From the NCBI RefSeq assembly GCF_022045235.1, contig NW_027266272.1:13268001-13332000 (forward strand): DNA of 64,000 nucleotides. Reading direction: 5' to 3'. Shown here in pieces: positions 14,401-60,060 of this stretch. This DNA is from Haliotis cracherodii. Its lineage: Eukaryota. The notes below the pieces were generated by a model, which was not told the DNA's origin, searched no databases, and was given only the letters and a program-made list of their open reading frames with translations. Within the stretch, counting starts at the first letter, position 1; the number at the start of each line of letters is the position of its first letter. A program made the position numbers and the translations under genes.

Positions 14401-17400
14401 CGCTGCGGCTGTGACGGGAATAGCATTTGCGTTATTCGCAGGTCAACCCCTAAACATCCTTGGCAGTACTGGACCGATGTTGGTGCTTGAGAAGATTATA
14501 TATGACATCTGCAAGTAAGTAAAAACTGCACCAAATATAGGACATCGAGCAATGTTTACAACTGATATAAATATCTTATATCCTGATGTAATAATAATTA
14601 CTATCTGCAAAATTTTCAACAATTGTAAGAAATGACTGAAACGTGATCTGACCTTCACCTTGCACTTCGTTACCTTCAGGGATCAAGAATGGGACTTCCT
14701 GCCGTTCCGTGCGTGGATTGGTATCTGGACCGCCGGATTCCTTCTTCTGATTGTCATGTGGGATCTGAGCGCTCTCGTCAAGTACATCACTCGTTTCACC
14801 GAAGAAAGTTTCGCCTGTCTTATAGCGCTCATATTCATATACGAGGCGTTCGTCAAACTAGCGGAGATAGGGTCTGAAGAAGCCCCTGTCGAGCTCCACC
14901 CCTCCGGAAACTTCACCCCCCGTGTGTGTCACTGTACCCTCCCCGACACCATCACCACCATGGCTCCCATGCACGACTCCCTCAACCACACCCTCGGCGC
15001 CTCCCTCAACCACACTCTCGGTAACATGACCACTACAATGGCCAGCGTCATGAACAACACTATGGATATGAGCACCCACGGAATGGAACACGAGAACATG
15101 ACCCATCTATCCAAGGAAGAGTGCACGGCGATGTTCGGAACGTGGCACTGTGTCGGTCCCGTCCCTGACGCCTTCATGTTCTCCATCATCCTTTACTTCG
15201 GCACCTTCGGCATCGCCATCTTCTGTGTCACTTTCAAGACCTTCCCCTGCTTCCCGACCTTCGTAAGTATAGCTTGTAAACACAGTCCGATCAACAAGTA
15301 ATACCAATAGTAGTACTATTCCCGAAACAGTCTGGGGGGGGGGGGGGGGGGGGGGGGGGACTCAACCCCAGCATGTTCGCCACTCTAATATTACATGGAC
15401 TTTCGTTCATATGTATCGAGGGCACCCCAATTCACTGTGCAGAGTTGCGTCCCTTGGGCACACCAGAAACCTATGATTGTGGGTTCGAATCCCGGTTCGG
15501 CCCGATTATGTTTCTGGTTTGTCAGCACCATACCCGTGCTCGTGGGTTTCACCGAAGTGGTAAATGTCTGAGACATGCATCACTTGCGGCTTTCCTCCCA
15601 CATGAAGCTGACACGCCGTGATATGACTGGAATACTGTTAAAAGCAGCGTTAAACCCAACTCACTCACTCACCTTTACAGTCTCTATCCCAACGTAATGT
15701 CAATATTTCTTCTCGTTTTCAAAATGGTGTCTTCTCCGACGTCCGTGCGCTCCAGCAATGCTGATTGGTTGTTCTGTTAACAGGTGCGCCAGATTATCAG
15801 CGACTTCGGTGTACTCATCGCCATTGTGTTGATGGTTGTGGTCGATTACCTGCTCGGACTTCCCACACCCAAACTGACCGTGCCAGAGGAGTTCAAGGTA
15901 CATTCCAACTCTCGTCTAATACACTGTGTATTTTATTTAACAAAATCCCCGGACACCGTCTCTTTTTCTATGCAGTCACCATTGGTCATGAATACATTTC
16001 GTGAAGAACTTGGTGGTACACATCCCATTAAACCTTATCATTGACATGAACACATTTTAACTTGTACCTGTTTCTGTGTAGCCCACCCGCTCGGACCGAG
16101 GCTGGTTCATCAACCCTGTCTCTGAGAAGAACCCTTGGTGGTTGGCTCTGGCTGCCGGTCTCCCCGCCATCATTGGCACCATCCTCATCTTCATGGATCA
16201 GCAGATCACCGCTGTCATTGTCAACAGGAAGGAAAACCTCCTCAAGGTCAGTAACGTTCGAACATGACCTTGCAATATTCCGTGCCGACCGTATGTCGAC
16301 CACGTGTCAATTGGCATTGCTTTTCTCACATCAAAACCTTCCATATTTTCTTCAACATCAGAACAAAACATATATATAGCCTGATAAGAACATGCATCTT
16401 ACTACTTAGATCCCTCTGCTTATAAACCCTCATTTTAAACAAACTGACCTCAGCCATACATCATCTCTGATCACACATCTATTTGTCACCGATTCCCTCC
16501 CCAATTTGCAGAAGGGCAAGGGCTATCATCTCGACCTGTTCGTGCTGTGTATCCTGGTCGCTGCCCACTCTCTGCTGGGACTCCCCTGGTACGTCGCCGC
16601 CACTGTGTCCGCCATTGCCCACATCCAGAGTCTCAGGAAGGAGTCGGAATCCACAGCCCCCGGAGACAAACCCGCTTTCCTGGGTGTTAGGTAACTACCC
16701 TTGTGTGACTCAACCCCCAACATCTACCACTGGAAAACCAACCCAGTACATCATTTTCTTAAACTTAACCTTGTAACTGATAAACAAGATCAAATATGTC
16801 CATTTGTAATCCTCGTTCCGCCGGGTACCCTTTTTACAACCTGTATGAAATATATAACCTAACAATGACAGTGAATCCCATTCGATTAGTTTAAGGTTAA
16901 CCATGTCTTTGTATACAGTACTGTTATGGTCATAACAAGTACCGTAATGTAACGGTACATGTTCACCTCAGAAAAGTATAGCCCCGTTAATCCGGCTTCC
17001 TTTAATCGCAGTGATAAATGTTAAGAAATTCAGTACGTACAAAAATGGGCATTCACGATTCTGGCGACCCGTCTGGATAAACGGGTTCATATTATATTCA
17101 TATGTGTAATTACAAGGGAAAATCTATCATTGCGCCTAGCAACTTTATTTGTTGACAACGGGCAGGGCAGTCCACGTGTCAGGGCATACTAACATCGTGA
17201 CATATATATTTGGTTACTGTTTAGGTTTTGAGATCAAAGTTACGTTGCTATGTGATATATACAGTCATAAATTACAAGCAGACACCGTACCCGCTTCTAC
17301 TTCATTATAAACACTCCCACACTGTGCTTTTCCGTCAAGACGGCAAACACACCAGATAACGCCTCGTGCACGTGATTAAAGACCAAAGTTATAAACCGTC

Positions 17401-30902: not shown

Positions 30903-31157
30903 TACGCAGTTGTCATGTGAGGCAGGCAGACAAAACGATTCGTGAGAATGAAACCAATAACACGTCATCTTTTCCTGACACTCCTTTAGTAGACACAGAA
31001 AATGCATGTAACCCATCACATCCTGAAATTTGAATATGGCACAACTTAATTAATAAGCACAACAGTGAATCGTGAGAACAAGAAAAAAAGCTTCTAAATA
31101 CTGGGAAGAAATAGTTCTTTTTTAATGTACAGTAATATGTTATCCGGTTTCTCTCAG

Positions 31158-31354
31158 CTAAACATAAAATACGAGTTGAGAGGCTGCTGCCATGGTCACA
31201 AACACGACAAACAGAATCGTGTCTAGTCTGTCAGCAAATTCATCTTTCTTGATGGTACTGTTTCCAAATCTGTGACCTTAACCTTCTGACGGAAGTGACA
31301 AAGCAGCGCCGCCTGTCGGTGGTGAGTGTTCATGACAAGGAGTGTTGCGAGCAG
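31158..31354 (-). pseudogene. 3' remnant (end of M3, M4, stop) of a third Cys-loop receptor copy (copy C)
   Basis: Aligns to about 37231-37455 of copy A with a 25-nt frameshifting deletion in the M3-M4 loop. The upstream CDS is missing and unrelated AT-rich DNA lies in its place. Flanks are homologous to those of copy A. Confidence 0.9.
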
Positions 31355-37230: not shown

Positions 37231-38376
37231 CTAAACATAAAATACGAGTATAGAGGCTGCTGCCATGGTCACAAACATGACAAACAGAATCTTGTCTAGT
37301 CTGTTAGCAGCTTCATCTTTCTGGATGCCACTGAGTTCATTCCAAGCACTGGGTTTATTGTCCAAATCTGTAACCTTGACCTTCTTACTGAAGCGGCAAA
37401 GCAACGCCCCCTGTCGGTGGTGAGTGTTTATGACCAGGAGAGTGGCGAGCAGAGCCAGGGCGCTCTGTGACAGAAGCAGAACCAGATAGATGGTGAGGCG
37501 GGAGGCATTGCCGGACTTGGGGATAGCGTCATTGATGTAGTTGAGGAACACTGCTCCAGACACGAAGATGGAGACGAGGAAGGAGATCTTTTCCCCCGAG
37601 GCCGCGGGCAGCAGGAATACACAGGCGTTGAGGAAGGAGAGAAGACACATTGGAAAGATGACGCTTAGGGTGTAGAAGATGCTGTGACGCCGGAGTCGGA
37701 ACTTGACATCAATATAAGGTAAAGCGTCGTAGAATGCATGAAAGTGCTTCTCGTGGAATGTAGTGTTGACCAACTCCCACTCACTGCTGCCAGTGAAATA
37801 TGCAGAGAAAATATCACTAAGGCCTTGACTACGCAAATAAAGTCTTGAGTCTAATAAGCCGAGAAATGACATGTGACACTCCTGTTCATCATATGGATAC
37901 CTTGTCACATCTAAATTGCAAATTGTCTCAAATTCATCAATTATAAACATCAATGTCGTTCCAGTAGAACGTACATTGATAGGCATACTTGCGGTTAAGG
38001 AGGAAATCTTGTTACCCACAGCGTTTGGAATTATAAAGTTTGGAGTCCATATCTCTTCAGACTTAAAGGCAAGGCTTTCGACACCGTTGGTGTTGTTCCA
38101 CGTCAGCCATGGATCCTTCCAAGACATAGTCAGAGAGCCACTGAGACGAAATATCTGACTGGCTTCTTCCACAGCTACAACAGCTATGGGGGCGAAGGAC
38201 AATGATACATTGACGCGGTTGCCCGTCCCATAGGGCGACACCGTGGTGGAGTAGTTGTACAGGAGATCCTGCTTCAGTTGCTGCTGTCGCCGTCTCTCAG
38301 GGTCCGCTTCACCATGGCAACAGCTCAACAAACTAATACAACATACAATCCAAGCCGTATCTTTAAGATTGCCCAT
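37231..38376 (-). CDS. divergent nAChR-like Cys-loop ligand-gated cation channel subunit, single coding exon (copy A), 381 aa
   Basis: Signal peptide, WKDPWLTW, IWTP, Cys-loop CNLDVTRYPYDEQEC, SSEW, LRR, four TM helices, SGEKIS at the M2 start. No vicinal CC in loop C. A splice acceptor (ttttatag) lies 9 nt upstream of the ATG, suggesting a 5'UTR intron only. Confidence 0.95.
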   Translation of the reverse strand: MGNLKDTAWIVCCISLLSCCHGEADPERRRQQQLKQDLLYNYSTTVSPYGTGNRVNVSLSFAPIAVVAVEEASQIFRLSGSLTMSWKDPWLTWNNTNGVESLAFKSEEIWTPNFIIPNAVGNKISSLTASMPINVRSTGTTLMFIIDEFETICNLDVTRYPYDEQECHMSFLGLLDSRLYLRSQGLSDIFSAYFTGSSEWELVNTTFHEKHFHAFYDALPYIDVKFRLRRHSIFYTLSVIFPMCLLSFLNACVFLLPAASGEKISFLVSIFVSGAVFLNYINDAIPKSGNASRLTIYLVLLLSQSALALLATLLVINTHHRQGALLCRFSKKVKVTDLDNKPSAWNELSGIQKDEAANRLDKILFVMFVTMAAASILVFYV

Positions 38377-38477: not shown

Positions 38478-38788
38478 CAGGGGAAGATCCTGTTTCTGAT
38501 GAACATGAAGTCTGTACTGTCAATGTACAGGGAAAGATCCCGTTTCTGGTGAACACGAAGACTGTACTGTCAATGTACAGGGAGAGATCCTGTTTCTGGT
38601 GAACACGAAGACTGTACTGTCAATGCACAGGGAGAGATCCTGTTTCTGATGAACACGAAGTCCGTACTGCCAATGTCCAGGGAAAGATCCTGTTTCTGAT
38701 GAACACGAAGTCCGTACTGCCAATGTACAGGGAGAGATCCTGTTTCTGATGAACACGAAGTCCGTACTGCCAATGTCCAGGGAGAGAT
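38478..38788. repeat. 50-bp minisatellite, about 6 copies, just upstream of receptor copy A
   Basis: caatgtacagggagagatcctgtttctg(a/g)tgaacacgaag.c.gtactg(t/c). Confidence 0.95.
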
Positions 38789-39518
38789 GCTGTCGTCTAG
38801 CCACACACCAGGAGTGCTGCAATGCCTAATGTCGTCGTTTTTTTCATACGCGGGTATTAAATAAAAGCTGCAGGGGACAATGAGTTTCGTCAATGAATTG
38901 CCACGTGCGCCTTTTATTTGCCTTGATCTGTAGAGAACAATGGACAAAACAGGAGCCAACACGGGCGACAATGACTATTGTTTATTCGCCATTAGAGAAA
39001 GTTTACTGGCGATGTATTGGGCATCAATTGTTTTACGGACACATAATTACAGATTGTTTTCAACAGGAAGCATTCACATTCTAGAAGCACTATGACAACA
39101 AAACGGTTCCTTTAGTCAAATAATAATTTGAATAGAAGATGTTTAAATAAAATGTTAATAGTTAATGTTTTTTAGTGTAGAAGTACTAAAGACGTTCATC
39201 ATCAGAGGAGTTTGGTTAGAACCTTTCGGGTACATTTTACCGTGTTATACAAACGATGGAATTGGCAAACATCATTGTTCGGAGTTATACAGCACGTGTA
39301 GGCGTCACGTTGGCAGCAATGTGAGGCTATTTGATGTCAGTTACCACGTGCAGCAGAGTGGAATATGTGATATAATTACACTATGGCGTGTCAGCTTATG
39401 TTGGACGAAAGCCCCAAGGACGCATGTCCTCAACGTTTATCACTTACGTAAATTCACGCGCTCGGGTATGAACTACCCCCGAGGATCGAGTGGTCAGGCT
39501 CGGCGACGTGGCTGAAAG

Positions 39519-41903: not shown

Positions 41904-44900
41904 TCTATACCCACTGACAACACAATCTTCTCCACTGTGTGACATGTGGTTCTATACCTAATGACAACACTATCTTCTCCACTGACTGTGTGACATGTGG
42001 TTCTGTACCCACTGACAACACTATCTTCTCCACTGATTGATTGACGTGAGGTTCTATACCTAATGACAACACTATCTTCTGCACTGACTTTGTGACGTGT
42101 GGTTCTATACCCACTGACAACACTATCTACTGCACTGACTGTGTGACGTGTGGTTCTATACCCACTGACAACACTATCTTCTCCACTATGTGACATGTGG
42201 TTCTATACCCACTGACAACACTATTTTCTCCACTGACTGTGTGACGTGAGGTTCTATACCCACTGACAACACTATCTACTGCACTGACTGTGTGACGTGT
42301 GGTTCTATACCCACTGACAACACTATCTACTGCACTGACTGTGTGACATGTGGTTCTATACCCACTGACAACACTATCTACTGCACTGACTGTGTGACGT
42401 GTGGTTCTATACCCACTGACAACACTATCTTCTCCACTGACTGTGTGACGCGAGGTTCTATACCCAATGATAACACTATCTACTGCACTGACTGTGTGAC
42501 GTGTGGTTCTATACCCACTGACAACACTATATTCTCCACTGATTGTGTGACGTGTGGTTCTATACCCCCTGACAACACTATCTTCTCCACTGACTGTGTG
42601 ACGTGTGGTTCTATACCCACTGACAACACTATCTACTGCACTGACTGTGTGACGTGTGGTTCTATACCCACTGATAACACTATATTCTCCACTGATTGTG
42701 TGACGTGTGGTTCTATACCCACTGACAACACTATCTTCTCCACTGACTGTGTGACATGTGGTTCTATACCCACTGACAACACTATCTACTGCACTGACTG
42801 TGTGACGTGTGGTTCTATACCCACTGACAACACTATCTACTGCACTGACTATGTGACGTGAGGTTCTATACCCACTGACAACACTATCTTCCCCACTGAC
42901 TGTGTGAGGTGTGGTTCTATACCCACTGACAACACTATCTTCTGCACTGACTGTGTGACGTGTGGTTCTATACCCACTGACAAAACTATCTTCTCCACTA
43001 TGTGACGTGTGGTTCTATACCCACTGACAACACTATCTTCTCCACTGACTGTGCGAGGTGTGGTTCTATACCCACTGACAACACTATCTTCAGCACTGAC
43101 TGTGTGACGTGAGGTTCTATACCCACTCACAACACTATCTTCTCCACTGACTGTGTGACGTGTGGTTCTATACCCACTGACAACACTATCTTCTCCACTG
43201 ACTGTGTGACGTGTGGTTCTATACCCACTGACAACACTATCTACTGCACTGACTGTGTGACGTGTGGTTCTATACCCACTGACAACACTATCTACTGCAC
43301 TGACTGTGTGACGTGAGGTTCTATACCCACTGACAACACTATCTTCTCCACTGACTGTGTGACATGTGGTTCTATACCCACTGACAACACTATCTACTGC
43401 ACTGACTGTGTGACGTGTGGTTCTATACCCACTGACAACACTATCTTCTCCACTGACTGTGTGACGCGAGGTTCTATACCCACTGACAACACTATCTACT
43501 GCACTGACTGTGTGACGTGTGGTTCTATACCCACTGACAACACTATATTCTCCACTGATTGTGTGACGTGTGGTTCTATACCCACTGACAACACTATCTT
43601 CTCCACTGACTGTGTGACGTGTGGTTCTATACCCACTGACAACACTATCTACTGCACTGACTGTGTGACGTGTGGTTCTATACCCACTGACAACACTATC
43701 TACTGCACTGACTGTGTGACGTGTGGTTCTATACCCACTGACAAAACTATCTTCTCCACTATGTGACGTGTGGTTCTATACCCACTGACAACACTATCTT
43801 CTCCACTGACTGTGCGAGGTGTGGTTCTATACCCACTGACAACACTATCTTCTCCACTGACTGTGTGACGTGTGGTAATATACCCACTGACAACACTATC
43901 TTCTGCACTGATTGTGTGACGTGTGGTTCTATACCCACTGACAAAACTATCTTCTCCACTATGTGACGTGTGGTTCTATACCCACTGACAACACTATCTT
44001 CTCCACTGACTGTGCGAGGTGTGGTTCTATACCCACTGACAACACTATCTTCTCCACTGATTGTGTGACGTGAGGTTCTATACCCACTGACAACACTATA
44101 TTCTCCACTATGTGACATGTGGTTCTATACCCACTGACAACACTATCTACTGCACTGACTGTGTGACGTGTGGTTCTATACCATCTCACAACACTATCTT
44201 CTCCACTGACTGTGTGAGGTGTGGTTCTATACCCACTGACAACACTATCTTCTCCACTGATTGTGTGACGTGTGGTTCTATACCCACTGACAACACTATC
44301 TACTGCACTGACTGTGTGACGTGTGGTTCTATACCCACTGACAACACTATCTACTGCACTGACTGTGTGACGTGTGGTTCTATACCCACTGACAACACTA
44401 TCTTCAGCACTGACTGTGTGACATGAGGTTCTATACCCACTCACAACACTATCTTCTGCACTGACTGTGTGACGTGTGGTTCTATACCAACTGACAACAC
44501 TATCTTCTCCACTGATTGTGTGACGTGAGGTTCTATACCCACTGACAACACTATATTCTCCACTATGTGACATGTGGTTCTATACCCACTGACAACACTA
44601 TCTACTGCACTGACTGTGTGACGTGTGGTTCTATACCATCTCACAACACTATCTTCTCCACTGACTGTGTGAGGTGTGGTTCTATACCCACTGACAACAC
44701 TATCTTCTCCACTGATTGTGTGACGTGAGGTTCTATACCCACTGACAACACTATATTCTCCACTGACTGTGTGACGTGTGGTTCTATACCCCCTGACAAC
44801 ACTATCTTCTCCACTGACTGTGTGACGTGTGGTTCTATACCCACTGACAACACTATCTTCTCCACTGATTGTGTGACGTGTGGTTCTATACCCACTGACA

Positions 44901-45500
44901 ACACTATCTTCTCCACTGACTATGTGACATGTGGTTCTATACCCACTGACAACACTATCTACTGCACTGACTGTGTGACGTGTGGTTCTATACCATCTCA
45001 CAACACTATCTTCTCCACTGACTGTGTGACGTGTGGTTCTATACCCACTGACAACACTATCTTCTCCACTGATTGTGTGACGTGAGGTTCTATACCCACT
45101 GACAACACTATATTCTCCACTGACTGTGTGACGTGTGGTTCTATACCCACTGACAACACTATTTTCTCCACTGATTGTGTGAAGTGAGGTTCTATACCCA
45201 CTGACAACACTATCTTCTCCACTGACTGTGTGACGTGAAGTTCTATACCCACTGACAACACTGGGTATAGAACCTCACGATCTTCTCCACTGTGTGACAT
45301 GTGGTTCTGTACCAACTGAAAACACTATGTTCTCTTCTGACTGTGTGACGTGTGGTTCTATATCCAATGATAACACTATCTTCTGCACTGACTGTGTGAC
45401 GTAAGGTTCTATACCCACTAAAACGCTATCTTCTGCACTGACTGTGTGACGTGAGGTTCTATACCCACTGACAACACGATATTCTCCGCTGACCGTGTGA
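41904..45500. repeat. 51-bp satellite (about 70 copies, with 47-bp variants) between the two intact receptor genes
   Basis: gtgtgacgtgtggttctatacccactgacaacactatcttctccactgact. Confidence 0.98.
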
Positions 45501-46512: not shown

Positions 46513-47646
46513 CTATATACGAAACACAAGTATTGAGAGTGCGGCCATCAACACAAACAGGACAAACATAATTTTATCGAGTCTGTCTGCTGCTTCATCG
46601 TTCTTGATATCATCGCCTCTCTCCAATGGACTTGTGCTTTGAACTGCGATCTTCTTACGGAGGCGACAAAGCAACGCTCCCTGTCGGTGGTGAGTGTTTA
46701 TGACCAGGAGAGTGGCGAGCAGAGCCAGGGCGCTCTGTGACAGAAGCAGAACCAGATAGATGGTGAGGCGGGAGGCAATGCCGGACTTGGGGATAGCGTC
46801 ATTGATGTAGTTGAGGAACACTGCTTCGGACACGAAGATGGAGACGAGGAAGGAGACCTTCTCCCCCGAGGCCGCGGGCAGCAGGAATACACAGGCGTTG
46901 AGGAAGGAGAGAAGACACATTGGAAAGATGACGCTTAGGGTGTAGAAGATGCTGTGACGCCGTAGTCGGAATTCGAGATCAACGTACGGAATACGGTCAG
47001 CGACTCGTTTAACGCTAATGGTTTTGTTAACCAAATCCCATTCACTGCTACCAGTAAAGTATGTAGAAAAAATGTTGGTATATTCTTGATTTCCCAGTCC
47101 AAAATCTGAGGAGTTTAACAAACTGATAACAGTTATGCGACACACCTGTTCATCATAAGGATACCGTACCACATCCAAATTACAAATTGTCTCAAATTCA
47201 TTAATCATGAACATGATTGCCGTGCCAGAATGGTCAACGGAGATGGGCACACTTGCGGACAAAGAGGAAATCTTGCTACCTACACCGTTTGCAATCACGA
47301 TCTTCGGGGTCCATATCTCCTCAGGTTCAAATTCAAGCTTTTCGATATCATTGCTCCTGTCCCATGTCAACCAAGGATCCGTCCAAGACAAAGTCAGAGC
47401 GCCACTTAAGCGGAATATCTGATTGGCTTCTTCCACGGCTATCACAGCTATGACAGCGAATGACACAGAGACCATGACCCGACTTGCCGTTCCTTTGGGC
47501 GACACCGTGGTGGAGTAGTTGTACAGGAGATCCTGCTTCAGTCGTTGCTGTCGTCGTCTCTCAGGGTCCGCTTCACCATGGCAACATCTCAACAAAAACA
47601 CCACGGACAACATCAAAGCAGCATAGTTGAATAGAACACTCTGCAT
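46513..47646 (-). CDS. divergent nAChR-like Cys-loop ligand-gated cation channel subunit, single coding exon (copy B), about 377 aa
   Basis: Paralogue of copy A: Cys-loop CNLDVVRYPYDEQVC, SGEKVS, four TM helices. Start placed at ATG 47646 (MQSVLFNYAALMLSVVFLLRCCHG) because it gives a signal peptide aligned with copy A; the ORF track extends to 47736. Confidence 0.93.
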   Translation of the reverse strand: MQSVLFNYAALMLSVVFLLRCCHGEADPERRRQQRLKQDLLYNYSTTVSPKGTASRVMVSVSFAVIAVIAVEEANQIFRLSGALTLSWTDPWLTWDRSNDIEKLEFEPEEIWTPKIVIANGVGSKISSLSASVPISVDHSGTAIMFMINEFETICNLDVVRYPYDEQVCRITVISLLNSSDFGLGNQEYTNIFSTYFTGSSEWDLVNKTISVKRVADRIPYVDLEFRLRRHSIFYTLSVIFPMCLLSFLNACVFLLPAASGEKVSFLVSIFVSEAVFLNYINDAIPKSGIASRLTIYLVLLLSQSALALLATLLVINTHHRQGALLCRLRKKIAVQSTSPLERGDDIKNDEAADRLDKIMFVLFVLMAALSILVFRI

Positions 47647-52845: not shown

Positions 52846-55800
52846 TCATGTGACATGCAGCCACAGTTGCCAGGCAATGTAAGGGGAGATAATTCCCGTG
52901 AGGAGTGAAGAAAGGAGGTTGACGCCATGGTTGTCGAGGACTGCGTAGCCGCTAATGTGTTCCACATGGGGCCCCGGGTGTTCCACGATACAAGCACGCC
53001 GCCGGTCGTACCCTGGGGGAGTAAGAGTACAATATAGCTCTGTTTACTTCTACATGTATATAATGTTACACCGCATGTGTATAATCAGGAAACAAGTATA
53101 GCCTGATCAATCATGCAATATTTAGAATTCGTCACATTTTCAGAGCTTGTTCATGCGATTTTATTTGTTTGTTTTTCAACCCAGCAATATTCCATCCATA
53201 TGACTGTGGCCTGTAAACAATCAAATCTGGACCAGACAATCCTGTAGGGCTGAAACAATTCACCGAAACCTACAATATCATTGATACTTAGGTACACACG
53301 ATACTTGATTCTTCAGTTTGTAACATAGGGATACACTATAAATAGAACAGAAACCAAAAGAGTTACCTCCCATAATGGCAGAAGTAGCATGGAGCCACAG
53401 TAAGCATGTCAGATTAAGGGAACGTGGTGGCTGAGGATGCGCCAACTAACTGATACATTCAGTAACCATCTCTTCATTTAAAACTGTTTTAAATTTGTTC
53501 TTGTGGTGTTCTTTGTTAAAGTTTTTTACAATCCAGTGATTGACATTATGAGCAATCATCCACGCCATCACCGAGTCTGATCACCCGATCCACTAAGTTG
53601 CCTAATACTACTGGCATAGAACCCGGGATTATGAACAAAGAAAGGTTAACTGGGAGAATACACATAGTCCCTGAAACAAGGTCCCTGAAACATGGTCCCT
53701 GACACATGGTCCCCGAAACATGATCCCCAAAACATGGTCCCCGAAACACGATCCCTGAAACACAGTCCGTGAAACATGGTCCCTGAAACAGGTTCCCTGA
53801 AACAGGGTCCCTAAAACATGGTCCCTGAAACATGATCCCTAAAACATGGTCCCTGAAACAGGGTTACTAAAACAGGGTCCCTGAAACATGATCCCTGAAA
53901 CAGGGTCCCTGACACAGGGTCCCTGACACAGGGTCCCTGAAACATGATCCCTAAAACATGGTCCCTGAAACGTGATCCCTAAAACATGGTCCCTGAAACA
54001 GGGTCACTAAAACATGGTCCCTGAAACAGGGTCACTAAAACATGGTCCCTGAAACATAGTCTTATTATGGGCATAGAGTGGCGATACATCTGTACATGTT
54101 TTGGACTGATTCATGTTAGGCATCTCATAATTCCTGATGATATTTTTCTTCTCCCAACATCCCCGGACCCCAGGTATTGATATTTTACCTGAGAACTGAA
54201 GCAGAGCACCCAGGTAGGAGTCTATGATGGACCCCACGAAGCCTGCGGAGGTGGCGAGGAGGAGGATGGGCCACTGGGGGGGACTGTCACTCAAGGACAG
54301 CTCGGTAGTACACAGCAGCAAGGCCACATAGTAGGCTGCTCCAACAATAAACCCTCCGAAAATGCTGCTCACGGTTCCAGTAAATGTCACACCGCCATTA
54401 GTGCCTGCAACACAAATCAATATAACAAACATCACAAGGACTGATAGTGTAAATCATGAAATTAATTAAGGAAAAGATTTAAGGAAAAGATATATGGATG
54501 AACATCTTCCTTATTACAATTAGGAGCGATGTTTCAGTGTAGGTTCTAACACTGTTATAGATCAAGTATACTTATTACAATTAGGAGCGATGTTTCAGTG
54601 TAGGTTCTAACACTGTTATAGATCAGGTATACTTGTTAGAACCAACACTGAACATCACTCTTCATTGTAATAAAGAAGTTGTTCATCCATATGTCTTAAC
54701 CTTACCTAGTATTGAAACTTCTAAATGTCTCTCAAAGAAATTACATCAAATTACTGCTTTCATTAAAAAAGTAAAGCATTATTATCATGATTATCCGGAC
54801 ATATTGCTGTTTGTTGTCAAGTTAGGTTCAGTGGACATGCCGGACATAATTGCATAAACAACAAGGCTCCAAGTAAACAAAGCAGTTGAGTTCTGGACTT
54901 AGTGCTTCTCACCAAGCATTGTGTCAGGTGTGGTTAGTTCAACACAAGTTCATGCAGCAGTTATGTCAGTTTAACACAAGTTGATGAGGTAGTTATGTCA
55001 GTTTAACACAAGTTGATGAGGTAGTTATGTCAGTTTAACACAAGTTAATGAGGCAGTTATGTCAGTTTAACACAAGTTCATGAGGCAGTTATGTCAGTTT
55101 AACACAAGTTGATGAGGTAGTAATGTCAGTTTAACACATGTTAATGAGGCAGTTATGTCAGTTTAACACAAGTTAATGAGGCAATAATTCAGTTTAACAC
55201 AATTTGATGAGGCAGTTATGTCAGTTTAACACAAGTTGATGAGGCAGTTATGTTAGTTTAACACAAGTTGATGAGGCAGTTATGTCAGTTTAACACAAGT
55301 TGATGAGGTACTTATGTCAGTTTACCACAAGTTGATGAGGCAGTTATGTCAGTTTAACACATGTTAATGAGGCAGTTATGTCAGTTTAACACACAGTTCA
55401 TGGGGCAGTTATGTCAGTTTAACACAAGTTAAGGAGGCAGTTATGTCAGTTCAACACAAGTTGATGAGGCAGTTATGTCAGTTTAACACAAGTTAATGAG
55501 GCAGTTATGTCTATTCCAACACAAGTTGATGAGGCAGTTATGTCTGTTCCAACACAAGTTGATGAGGCAGTTATGTCGGTTGCAAAACATATAGGACAGT
55601 ATCTTGGTCCTTGGCAACCATATCAGATAATCTCAAATTACAAGGAAAACACTGTTCACCATGTCACCCAGGTGAATCGATCACCATGCTCAAGTACATG
55701 ACAACACTTGGACCCATGCACAATCATTTGTTTGTTGACCTGACTTATCTCATTTGATTAAACAGCTTACTTTGAATTTCCTATTCTTGATGTTTCTCAA

Positions 55801-58800
55801 GTTAGATCACACTTGGAGATATCACTTCAGCGGCAAAAGGCATTCAGTATTATTCTTTGTTTGTTTGTTTGTTGTTTAACATCATACTCGACAATATTCC
55901 AGCTACAAGATTGGGGTCTGTACATAATCAAGTCTGGACCAAACAATCTAGTGATTGATATCATGAGCATCCATCCGCACAATAGGGATAGGAGGTCATG
56001 CATCAACCACGAGACTGACCACCAGATCCCGTTAGTTGCCATTTATGACATGCATAGTAACCTCTTACGGCACGCATGGATCTTCACGGTTACAGTATTA
56101 TTCTATCGAATTGCTATGACCCTTTACGTTATCATGGAATTCTAAGTCTACAGTCTTAAAGTTGTCCTTCGCTGAATACGGTACCCAAACTATCAAAAAG
56201 CAGCTTAATTTTGAAACACTCTGCAAGACTGAAAATCTGAAATCACAATGGACACATGTCTTCTAAAGCCTCCTGTAACCATGGAAACCATATGTCCTTA
56301 CCACTTACCTCTTGGCACCCTCTGGAAGTTGGTCACAAGCCATGGTTTTGAATGACCAAACACTGTTCCGACCTCAGAAGCAAATGTGTCCCCACAGCAA
56401 CAAGCCAGCGATCCTAGTACACTGGCAGCCCACCACGTCGAGGAGTACCTTCTAGAGAAGTCAAACGTCTTCTCCGCACAGCCAACCTCGAGCAGGTACA
56501 GGATAGCAAACACTGAGGCTACACCACCGTTACACATAACCTGCAGCCAGTTCCGCTGACCACCTGTAACACATGACACATGTCTCAACACAGGACACTT
56601 ATCTCAAAAAAGGGACATATGTCTCAACACAGGACACTTATCTCAAAACAGAACATATGTCTCTACACAGGACACTTGTCTCAATGTCTCAACACAGGAC
56701 ACTTGTCTCAATGTCTCAACACAGAACACTTGTCTCAATGTCTCAACACAGGACACTTATCTCAATACAAGACACTTGTCTCAACACAGGACACTTATCT
56801 CAACACAGGACACTTATCTCAACACAGGACACTTGCCTCAACACAGGACACTTATCTCAATACAGGACACTTATCTCAATACAGGACATATGTCTCAATA
56901 CAGGACACTTATCTTAAGACAGGACACTTATCTCAACACAGGACATATGTCTCAATACAGGACACTTATCTTAAGACAAGACACTTATCTAAACACAGGA
57001 CACTTGCCTCAACACAGGACACTGGTCTCAATGTCTCAATACAGGACACTTATCTCAAGACAGGACATTATCTCAAGACAGGACACTTGTCTCAACACAG
57101 AACATATGTCTCAACACAGGACACTTATCTCAAAACAGAACATATGTCTCAACACAGGACACTTGTCTCAGTGTCTCAACACAGGACACTTGTCTCAATG
57201 TCTTAACACAGGACACTTGTCTCAATGTTTCAACACTTGTCTCAATACAGGACACTTGTCTCAATGTCTTAACACAGGACACTTGCCTCAATGTCTCAAT
57301 ACAGGACACTTGTCTCAATGTCTCAACACAGGACACCTGTCTCAATGTCTTAACACAGGACACTTGTCTCAATGTCTCAATACAGGACACTTGTCTCAAT
57401 GTCTCAACACAGGACACTTGTCTCAATGTCTCAACACAGGACACTTGTCTCAATGTCTCAATACAGTACACTTGTCTCAATGTCTCAACACAGGACACTT
57501 GTCTCAATGTCTTAACACAGGACACTTGTCTCAATGTCTCAACACTTGTCTCAATACAGGACACTTGTCTCAATGTCTTAACACAGGACACTTGCCTCAA
57601 TGTCTCAATACAGGACACTTGTCTCAATGTCTCAACACAGGACACTTGTCTCAATGTCTTAACACAGGACACTTGTCTCAATGTCTCAACACAGGACACT
57701 TGTCTCAATGTCTCAACACAGGACACTTGTCTCAATGTCTCAACACTTGTCTCAATACAGGACACTTGTCTCAATGTCTTAACACAGGACACTTGTCTCA
57801 ATGTCTCAACACAGGACACTTGTCTCAATGTCTCAATACAGTACACTTGTCTCAATGTCTCAACACAGGACACTTGTCTCAATGTCTTAACACAGGACAC
57901 TTGTCTCAATGTCTCAACACTTGTCTCAATACAGGACACTTGTCTCAATGTCTTAACACAGGACACTTGCCTCAATGTCTCAATACAGGACACTTGTCTC
58001 AATGTCTCAACACAGGACACTTGTCTCAATGTCTTAACACAGGACACTTGTCTCAATGTCTCAACACAGGACACTTGTCTCAATGTCTCAACACAGGACA
58101 CTTGTCTCAATGTCTCAACACTTGTCTCAATACAGGACACTTGTCTCAATGTCTTAACACAGGACACTTGCCTCAATGTCTCAATACAGGACACTTGTCT
58201 CAATGTCTCAACACAGGACACTTGTCTCAATGTCTTAACACAGGACACTTGTCTCAATGTCTCAATACAGGACACTTGTCTCAATGTCTCAACACAGGAC
58301 ACTTGTCTCAATGTCTCAACACAGGACACTTGTCTCAATGTCTCAATACAGTACACTTGTCTCAATGTCTCAACACAGGACACTTGTCTCAATGTCTTAA
58401 CACAGGACACTTGTCTCAATGTCTCAACACTTGTCTCAATACAGGACACTTGTCTCAATGTCTTAACACAGGACACTTGCCTCAATGTCTCAATACAGGA
58501 CACTTGTCTCAATGTCTCAACACAGGACACTTGTCTCAATGTCTTAACACAGGACACTTGTCTCAATGTCTCAATACAGGACACTTGTCTCAATGTCTCA
58601 ACACAGGACACATGTCTCAATGTCTCAACACAGGACACTTGTCTCAATGTCTCCATACAGGACACTTGTCTCAATGTCTCAACACAGGACACTTGTCTCA
58701 ATGTCTCAACACAGGACACATGTCTCAATGTCTCAACACAGGACACTTGTCTCAACACAGGACACTTGTCTCAATGACACAACACAGGACACTTGTCTCA

Positions 58801-60060
58801 ATGACTCAACACAGGACACTTGTCTCAATGACTCAACACAGAACACTTGTCTCAACACAGTACACTTGTCTCAATGACTCAACACAGGACACTTGTCTCA
58901 ATGTCTCAACACAGTACACTTGTCTCAATGTCTCATACACGTCATACCTTCCTTGTAATCTTCCTCAAATTTCTTTTTCTGGTGAGCTCGGAGTTTGGTA
59001 ACCTTTGACCCTGCCAGGAAGAAAACCAGCAGGGCAGAGAAGAAACACAGACTGCTGAGTGTCAGGATGAATCCAACTAACAACCCTGGAATTACAGAGG
59101 TTACCAGGGTAACAGGTAACCAAACATGGAATACATTGAGGGGTAGCTGAAAAGTTCCGAGTCAAACTATGATGGACAGCTTTGATGGCGTTGGTTGCTG
59201 AATATTTTTCAACATAATCCCCTCCAAGGTCCACACACTTTTGCCACAGATGCTGGAATGTCTTCCCAGTTAGGCGCAAAACTTTTCAGCCCCCCTCGTA
59301 TTAATTTCTTTAAAATGATTCTATAGACTAAGGCTAAAAAAAATAATAGTCTTGGTTCTCAGGTACCGCCCGCATCATCATAGAGAGTGACACGTTTTGG
59401 TTTTTTTTCTATGTAAAAAACTCCAAAACAACAAAATCCTTAAATATTCCAAGTCAAACGGTAGTCAAATACCGTATTCCAGTATTTTACTCATCAACGA
59501 ATACATTCTTGTAGGGAGGCCCTTTCCCAAATTGATTGTACACAACTGTTTATTTGGTTACATATTAGTTTGAACAATCCCTCACAAAAAAAAACACACC
59601 GTCCCCCCACACTATATTTTCAAAAGCCATTGCCTGAGAACCAGTTCTTTTACTTTTTGAAGCCTAATGTTGCAGTCTTTAAACATTTGTGTGTTCCAAG
59701 AAAGGGACAGTACCTGCCACAGCACCGGACACATCCAGGCTCCTCTTCCTCAGCCCATACAGTGCAATGAGAACCGGAGCAATGGCTGCCACTAACCACC
59801 TCCAGGGGGCTGGGGCCGCATAGTCTGTAACCATGGTAACAGTTAGGTAGCAGGGACCACTAAGGGGTGAGGGGGAGTACTTGGGACCATTTCACTTTTA
59901 CATTCTACATTTAAAGGTTTCAACCATAATACATTGCTCTACAGAGTCAAATATGGAACAATACCAGCAAATAGGATTTCATAAGTGCTGTGCAAGATTT
60001 CATAGTTTATTCAAAAACATTTCATTTGAAGACTTATTTTTTTTCTTTTGATAATTTGTA

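What the first reader, a model, noticed from the sequence alone, without database searches (positions are those of the whole stretch)
38233..38332. Second homogenised island at the mature N-terminus brackets the variable ligand-binding cassette
Seen: about 100 nt encoding CCHGEADPERRRQQ.LKQDLLYNYSTTVSP differs at only about 4 positions from 47497-47596, whereas the preceding signal peptides are barely alignable and the following beta-sandwich is divergent. The variable region therefore sits between two near-identical blocks. Inference: these blocks could act as homology arms for swapping whole ligand-binding domains among paralogues.
Basis: partly seen in the sequence, partly recalled or inferred. 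Interest (0 to 1): 0.7.

Follow-up and report, generated by a model that had tools for sequence, protein, structure and literature searches.

The report
Gene-conversion patch in abalone receptor pair
Two old neighbouring abalone receptor-channel genes share a near-identical 100-base patch at their front end, likely because short pieces are copied between them; we found no sign that this patch is used to swap whole ligand-binding domains, although the matching membrane patch likely does create hybrid genes elsewhere in the family.

Summary
In detail: 38233-38332 and 47497-47596 differ at 4 of 100 bases. They lie in two intronless nicotinic-receptor-like channel genes, A and B. Synonymous divergence A-B is 0.09 in this island and 0.04 in M1-M3, against 0.91 in the ligand-binding domain and 0.71 in the tail. 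Young paralogue pairs show no such regional difference, so constraint does not explain it; interlocus gene conversion does. One event is visible: B orthologues in other abalones and a contig from a run with the same species label read CCCCE/YCCCE, while the window's B reads A's CCHGE.

The swap-arm idea is not supported. The N-terminal island is peculiar to this pair (1 of 189 testable pairs). A and B domains stay with their own signal peptide and tail across species. None of 83 genes (4,280 triplets) shows a swapped domain or a breakpoint at the N-terminus. The membrane island is common in the family (33 of 189 pairs), and three genes are single-breakpoint chimeras in or at its end, placed as unequal crossover predicts.

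This is a known process (opsins, protocadherins) that my searches did not find described for molluscan nicotinic-like arrays.

The parts
37231..38376 (-). Gene A: intronless Cys-loop (nicotinic-receptor-like) channel subunit, 381 aa
   Evidence: ORF; Pfam Neur_chan_LBD aa 32-231 and Neur_chan_memb aa 239-322 over cut-off
38233..38332 (-). N-terminal island in A: end of the signal peptide, the N-terminal helix and the loop after it (aa ~16-48)
   Evidence: 4/100 differences from B; dS 0.094 over aa 17-48; aligned to the alpha7 N-terminal helix
38311..38376 (-). Predicted signal peptide of A (aa 1-22; cleavage after C-H-G inferred)
   Evidence: Inference from hydrophobic run and alignment to Torpedo alpha precursor 4aq5; no predictor run
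37702..38232 (-). Divergent ligand-binding beta-sandwich of A (aa 49-225), not homogenised
   Evidence: dS 0.906, dN 0.255 against B
37393..37701 (-). Membrane island in A (M1-M3, aa 226-328)
   Evidence: 97.7% nt identity to B, 92% to gene C 3 Mb away; dS 0.040 over aa 226-322
46513..47646 (-). Gene B: intronless paralogue, 377 aa
   Evidence: ORF; Pfam
47497..47596 (-). N-terminal island in B
47577..47580 (-). Minimum extent of a recent A-to-B conversion tract (codons for H-G in place of C-C); probably includes 47571; bounded by B-specific letters at 47554 and 47587
   Evidence: B of runs X5 and X7 carry other letters at these four adjacent bases; H. rufescens B1, B2 and H. asinina B read C-C here
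46663..46971 (-). Membrane island in B
   Evidence: codon alignment
30937..31354 (-). Remnant D: 3' end only of a further A-like gene (end of M3, tail, 3' flank), frameshifted
   Evidence: blastn 78% over 443 nt; tblastn in two frames

Best explanation
The island is likely the scar of repeated short gene-conversion events between two old tandem paralogues, confined to the stretches where they stayed alike. Shown: A and B are intronless nicotinic-like channel genes whose split predates the separation from H. asinina; synonymous sites are nearly identical in two patches (N-terminal helix, M1-M3) and near saturation elsewhere; one four-base A-type tract sits in the window's B. Inferred: protein-level constraint on the helix and pore kept enough identity for ectopic strand invasion; each conversion renewed that identity; the ligand-binding sandwich, signal peptide and tail drifted or were driven below the identity at which conversion is frequent, and tracts entering the pocket were probably purged. 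The islands therefore homogenise shared parts and leave the binding domain in place. They do not exchange it. When such an event in the membrane island resolves as a crossover, it likely yields a duplication with a hybrid gene, as seen three times in other clusters.
For: dS by region A-B: signal 0.77, N-island 0.094, domain 0.906, M1-M3 0.040, tail 0.713. Control: in 27 young pairs pooled pS is even across regions (0.071, 0.071, 0.056, 0.091). Paralogue closer than orthologue: over aa 19-48 the window's B is 96% identical to A but 90% and 86% to its H. rufescens orthologues, while in the domain it is 60% to A and 90-93% to its orthologues. Four adjacent bases of B match A in the window but are ancestral in runs X5 and X7. 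In M1-M3 the three H. asinina paralogues share L231 and I318 where all eight genes of the other two species have H and T. The A orthologue in run X12 differs from window A at 12 listed sites within 37393-37701, more than the 7 between A and B. At 37597 window A and B share a synonymous letter that gene C and the contigs of X7, X12, X13 lack. Chimera L029 lies in a 6.3-kb tandem duplication with 6 mismatches whose two ends fall in the M2-M3 region. Conversion needs high identity, can use short identical stretches, and leaves peaks of divergence at selected sites (PMC3924818 passages; PMC3924837 section 3.2).
Against: The island is only 100 nt, under the ~200 nt minimal efficient segment quoted for yeast, so the rate should be low. 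Selection against converting the domain is inferred: dN/dS in the domain is 0.45 over young pairs and 0.28 for A-B, so a plain divergence barrier fits as well. High GC3 in the islands (0.62-0.74 against 0.42) does not single out GC-biased conversion: M1-M3 GC3 exceeds the domain's in 97 of 104 genes, including 8 of 9 isolated ones (p 0.30), and polarised counts are small (6:2 against 9:5). The window's A-type tract in B was seen only in this assembly, so an assembly error is not excluded. The runs are collapsed contigs, not phased reads.
Confidence: 0.85

Rival explanations
1. The two islands are homology arms through which whole ligand-binding domains are swapped between paralogues.
For: The geometry is real: near-identical blocks on both sides of a divergent domain. 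Recombination does occur in both blocks.
Against: Island in 1 of 189 testable pairs and absent from gene C (14/24 synonymous differences). 0 double switches in 4,280 triplets. Orthologues in two other species are not chimeric. Contigs bridging an island in X12 (2) and X13 (2) are A-type on both sides. Repeated swapping would erase the divergence that is observed (dS 0.9).
Confidence: 0.06
2. Selection favours the homogenisation: A and B would co-assemble in one pentamer, and conversion keeps their N-terminal helix and pore helices matched while the pockets differ.
For: The homogenised parts are those that form subunit contacts and the pore (established knowledge of Cys-loop receptors; alignment). 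The N-island is shared only by the adjacent pair.
Against: No expression or binding data. The most recent tract changes mainly signal-peptide residues, which looks neutral. Adjacency (9.3 kb) alone raises conversion rates. This reading adds to the best explanation and does not replace it.
Confidence: 0.2
3. Purifying selection on protein and on codon choice keeps these stretches alike without any exchange.
For: M1-M3 has the lowest pN/pS (0.19) and high GC3 throughout the family.
Against: Synonymous rates are even across regions in young pairs. Gene C shares 24/32 residues of the helix yet 14/24 of those codons differ. Orthologues diverge inside the islands. Four adjacent matching changes in B are not explained.
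Confidence: 0.05
4. Assembly or polishing error made the two copies look alike.
For: The four-base tract in B is not in X5, which carries the same species label as the best holder. The raw-read run gave no reads to check it.
Against: The island is also present in other species: A-B identity over aa 19-48 is 83-86% in H. rufescens against 59-60% in the domain, and run X7 has a collapsed 32-nt contig at double depth inside it. B-specific letters remain 7 and 23 nt from the tract. At most the error would account for the last few positions.
Confidence: 0.04

Closest known systems
Expanded intronless tandem nAChR-like genes of molluscs (Jiao et al. 2019, PMC6896357; passages read)
   Same: Intronless, tandem, Cys-loop with both Pfam domains; at least 108 matches in this genome.
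   Different: The word 'conversion' does not occur in that paper's main text; it attributes the arrays to retroposition and stepwise tandem duplication. Supplements not read.
Region-restricted gene conversion with peaks of divergence: primate red/green opsins (Fawcett and Innan 2011, PMC3924837; section 3.2 read)
   Same: Tandem paralogues; some regions closer between paralogues, others closer between orthologues.
   Different: In opsins the introns are homogenised and a small exon region is protected. Here there are no introns, the homogenised parts are coding, and they are the minority of the gene.
Protocadherin clusters (Noonan et al. 2004; cited in PMC3924837; not held; content recalled)
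   Same: Recalled: some ectodomain repeats homogenised with raised GC3, the specificity repeats divergent, all inside one large exon.
   Different: There the pattern is cluster-wide. Here the N-terminal island is restricted to one pair and only the membrane island is widespread.
Hybrid genes from unequal crossover (anti-Lepore globins, opsin hybrids, recalled; FCGR cluster PMC6563257, search listing only)
   Same: Hybrid gene placed between its parents, 5' from the downstream gene and 3' from the upstream gene (L029, L100, L026).
   Different: These are at other loci, not in the window; the A/B pair shows no such hybrid.
Cassette-exchange systems (chicken immunoglobulin conversion, trypanosome VSG, Neisseria pilin; recalled, with immunoglobulin mentioned)
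   Same: A variable region flanked by conserved blocks.
   Different: No donor archive, no family-wide flanking blocks, and no swapped product found.
Cephalopod chemotactile receptors and CR-like clade (PMC13174522; passages read)
   Same: Intronless nicotinic-derived genes with altered acetylcholine-binding residues.
   Different: Membership of that clade was not tested; no ligand data.

Membership tests
Cys-loop ligand-gated ion channel | Neur_chan_LBD plus Neur_chan_memb domains | tested here: met
   Both over cut-off for A and B
Cys-loop ligand-gated ion channel | C-x13-C loop | tested here: met
   C153-C167 in A, read from the translation
Canonical nAChR alpha subunit | Vicinal cysteines in loop C and aromatic box | tested here: not met
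   Against alpha7, A has D-A for C-C and lacks the loop A Tyr and the loop B and D Trp; it keeps both loop C Tyr. Loop labels recalled.
Molluscan intronless tandem nAChR-like genes | Single-exon coding sequence in a tandem array | tested here: met
   Unbroken ORFs 9.3 kb apart
Interlocus gene conversion (concerted evolution) | Regional loss of synonymous divergence not explained by rate | tested here: met
Interlocus gene conversion (concerted evolution) | Paralogues closer than orthologues in the tract, the reverse outside | tested here: met
Interlocus gene conversion (concerted evolution) | Tracts segregating within a species | tested here: inconclusive
   X5 differs from the window in B's tract, but contigs only, one run, assembly error not excluded
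GC-biased gene conversion | AT-to-GC excess specific to converted tracts | tested here: inconclusive
   GC3 high in islands but also in M1-M3 of isolated genes; small counts
Cassette-exchange system | Flanking homology blocks shared across the family | tested here: not met
   N-island in 1 of 189 pairs; 2 DNA matches
Cassette-exchange system | Products with a swapped variable region | tested here: not met
   0 of 4,280 triplets; none among 7 A/B orthologues
Cassette-exchange system | Rare or somatic swapped haplotypes in populations | not testable with these tools
   Needs phased long reads; the one raw-read run laid 0 reads
Cephalopod chemotactile receptor / CR-like clade | Phylogenetic placement and chemical gating | not tested
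   No tree with CR sequences was built

The most novel reading that the evidence does not exclude
Abalone nicotinic-like receptor arrays evolve as modular parts: conversion keeps the pore-coding block interchangeable, that block is the hub where crossovers grow the arrays and join sensor heads to new tails, and in the A/B pair a second island at the N-terminus lets a whole ligand-binding domain move between genes at low frequency.
Probability: 0.08. Interest if true: 0.7.

Novelty: new member of a known kind. Interest (0 to 1): 0.35.

Why it matters
It adds gene conversion and unequal crossover to the accepted retroposition-plus-duplication account of the large molluscan nicotinic-like receptor family. 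It means trees built on whole genes or on the membrane region will mis-date and mis-pair these paralogues. It also marks the unconverted sandwich as the place to look for ligand specificity. As a mechanism it is familiar from opsins and protocadherins, and the N-terminal island itself is a local feature of one gene pair.

Tried and rejected
Secondary structure as a cause: the island folds no better than shuffles (z 0.10). Shared flanks or a recent segmental duplication of A and B: similarity stops at the coding region. GC-biased conversion as proof: not discriminating. Raw-read test of haplotypes: run X18, about 1 in 100 of it read, laid 0 reads, no test. No RNA holder is on record, so nothing is said on expression. 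A search for shorter homologues of B found none at E<=1e-15 among 874 candidates, so the N-terminus of H. asinina A-type genes stays unseen. Four weak N-terminal switches in the first breakpoint scan (L059, L096, L108, L077) and two weak ones inside the domain (L047, L109) did not pass the region-based test; L087, L098 and L102 are mirror views of the L100 event. Neighbours of gene C: no further paralogue in about 10 kb each side. Literature: six searches listed no paper on conversion in molluscan nicotinic-like genes; most subscription journals are not covered. Noonan 2004 was not held. Earlier-findings look-ups near this place and by words returned nothing. No complex or structure was predicted.

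Full report
Setting. The window is G000:C9:13268001-13332000 in a 1.18-Gb genome. A close paralogue on a contig of the same length carries the NCBI label Haliotis cracherodii, so this is an abalone. The finding lies in gene A (37231-38376, minus strand, 381 aa); its partner lies in gene B (46513-47646, 377 aa). Both are single-exon Cys-loop channel subunits. Against human alpha7, A keeps the Cys-loop and the GEK motif before M2 but lacks the vicinal cysteines and three of the five box aromatics (residue roles recalled). It belongs to the intronless tandem nicotinic-like genes of molluscs described in PMC6896357 (passages).

Observation. The two 100-nt blocks differ at 4 positions. The codon alignment shows a divergent signal peptide, the island (aa 17-48), a divergent sandwich (49-225), a second island over M1-M3 (226-328) and a divergent tail. 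Synonymous divergence is 0.77, 0.094, 0.906, 0.040 and 0.713 in that order. Codon shuffles outside M1-M3 never reached so low a window (0 of 20,000; synonymous only, 153 of 20,000). The island codes for the last signal-peptide residues and the N-terminal helix, which is part of the extracellular domain. Similarity between A and B stops at the coding sequence, and both genes have counterparts in H. asinina, so the pair is old.

Constraint does not explain it. In 27 young sister pairs that I picked from the tree, pooled synonymous difference is even across regions (0.071, 0.071, 0.056, 0.091). Gene C, 3 Mb away, shares 24 of 32 island residues with A, yet 14 of those 24 codons differ; in M1-M3 only 13 of 92 differ. 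Orthologues do change inside the islands: the A contig of run X12 shows 12 listed differences from window A within the membrane island, against 7 between A and B (the table was cut, so 12 is a minimum).

Direct signs of conversion. H. rufescens has two A-type and two B-type genes. Its B genes read CCCCEP and H. asinina B reads YCCCEA, where the window's B reads CCHGEA like A. Over aa 19-48 the window's B is 96% identical to A and 86-90% to its own orthologues; in the sandwich the figures are 60% and 90-93%. At DNA level, four adjacent bases (47577-47580) are ancestral in the B contig of run X7 (another species) and in a loose end of run X5, which has the same species label as the best holder and whose A differs from the window's at 2 of 600 and 0 of about 300 bases. 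So this tract is recent and probably segregating; an assembly error is not excluded. One synonymous site (38296) points the other way, B to A: the A contigs of X7, X12 and X13 differ there while X7's B has the window's letter. A weaker hint: in X5 one contig at double depth (40 against about 19-22) matches A without a difference over 37526-37692, where window B differs at four sites; contig collapse could also produce this. In M1-M3, all three H. asinina paralogues share L231 and I318 against H and T in the eight genes of the other two species.

Test of the swap idea. The protein search gave 108 matches (a lower bound; 108 of 310 candidates scored). I fetched 107, leaving out one partial match; 3 had no open frame of 300 aa, leaving 104. 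Ninety-five fall in 20 clades that I drew from a FastTree tree, giving 295 pairs; 106 were set aside as too young (domain synonymous difference under 0.15). Of 189 tested, only A/B has an N-terminal island at p<0.001 (17 at p<0.05), whereas 33 have a membrane island (99 at p<0.05) (pairs are not independent, and power at the short N-terminus is low). A DNA search finds the island in A and B only. Among 83 genes in the 14 clades of three or more, 0 of 4,280 ordered triplets show a domain from one paralogue with signal and tail from another, and 0 show a switch at the 5' side only (signal-peptide columns align poorly in distant clades). A-type and B-type orthologues keep their type along the gene, and the four contigs of X12 and X13 that bridge an island are A-type on both sides.

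What does recombine. Three independent genes switch parent once, in or at the end of the membrane island: L029 (79 sites then 40, no exception), L100 and L026. Each sits between an upstream gene that matches its tail and a downstream gene that matches its front (places), the layout of an unequal crossover. For L029 the intervening 6.3 kb is duplicated with 6 mismatches and both ends fall in the M2-M3 region; for L100 the same layout is older. For L026 the intergenic duplication was not recovered, so it may be a long conversion instead. The L029 duplication is so young that an assembly artefact remains possible. So homogenised membrane DNA likely serves as a crossover site. It moves the whole front of a gene relative to the tail and needs no second arm.

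Mechanism. Shown: the regional pattern, the orthologue-paralogue reversal, one tract, three chimeras. Inferred: constraint on the helix and pore kept identity high enough for ectopic conversion, which then renewed itself; the other regions fell below the identity at which conversion is common (about 80%, with short identical stretches still usable; PMC3924818 passages). Whether selection also purges tracts in the pocket, as argued for opsins (PMC3924837 section 3.2), is open: domain dN/dS is below 1. GC3 is high in both islands but also in M1-M3 of 97 of 104 genes, isolated ones included, so it is not used as proof.

Novelty. Region-restricted conversion and hybrid genes are well known. Six literature searches listed no report for molluscan nicotinic-like arrays, and the main text of PMC6896357 does not use the word; I read no supplements. 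Earlier AI notes on this genome agree that such arrays have constant pores and variable pockets, and report a similar chimera layout in another family; these are leads, not support.

Verdict. Observation confirmed; interpretation partly supported; a gene-conversion scar, not a cassette arm. Interest 0.35.

Noticed in passing
G000:C2:31878349-31884755 (L112, L113; genes L035, L029, L030): Near-perfect 6.3-kb tandem duplication (6 mismatches) with both ends in M2-M3 coding DNA, producing hybrid gene L029. Very young, or an assembly artefact.
   Followed up: yes
G000:C56 ~12.115-12.129 Mb (L083, L100, L098) and C78 ~58.556-58.577 Mb (L020, L026, L025): Two more single-breakpoint hybrids placed between their parents.
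   Followed up: partly
L027, L034, L036, L042 (C56 ~25.6 Mb): Cluster in which M1-M3 is almost identical (1-3 synonymous differences of about 92) and the tail is 96-100% identical in protein, while domains differ strongly (26-34 of 69-89 in five of six pairs); domain GC3 only about 0.26.
   Followed up: partly
L003 (G000:C9:16238243-16239370): Gene C, about 3 Mb away and on the opposite strand, still shares the membrane island (dS 0.16-0.18 against over 1.5 in the domain), suggesting long-range or older conversion.
   Followed up: partly
window 37555-37557 (A aa 274, in M2): G in A and E in B and C in two species, but G in all three H. asinina paralogues: a pore-region difference that persists inside the homogenised island.
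   Followed up: no
window 30937-31354: 3' remnant of another A-like gene starting abruptly in M3; H. rufescens lists two A-type and two B-type genes, so copy number varies.
   Followed up: partly
L041, L044, L048 (C2 ~30.06 Mb): Young triplet with 12 nonsynonymous against 1 synonymous difference in the domain for L048/L044 (ratio 3.4), a hint of positive selection.
   Followed up: no
L004, L005 (C23 ~49.2 Mb): The opposite pattern at the N-terminal helix: 13 nonsynonymous against 2 synonymous differences.
   Followed up: no
window 41904-45500 and 38481-38793: A 51-nt satellite of about 70 copies between A and B, and a 50-nt repeat of 6 copies about 100 nt upstream of A's start codon.
   Followed up: no
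window 14756-15301 (+) and 54187-59098 (-): Exons of a bicarbonate-transporter gene (PF00955) and of a DUF92 gene (PF01940) flank the pair; whether the pair lies in an intron was not settled.
   Followed up: partly
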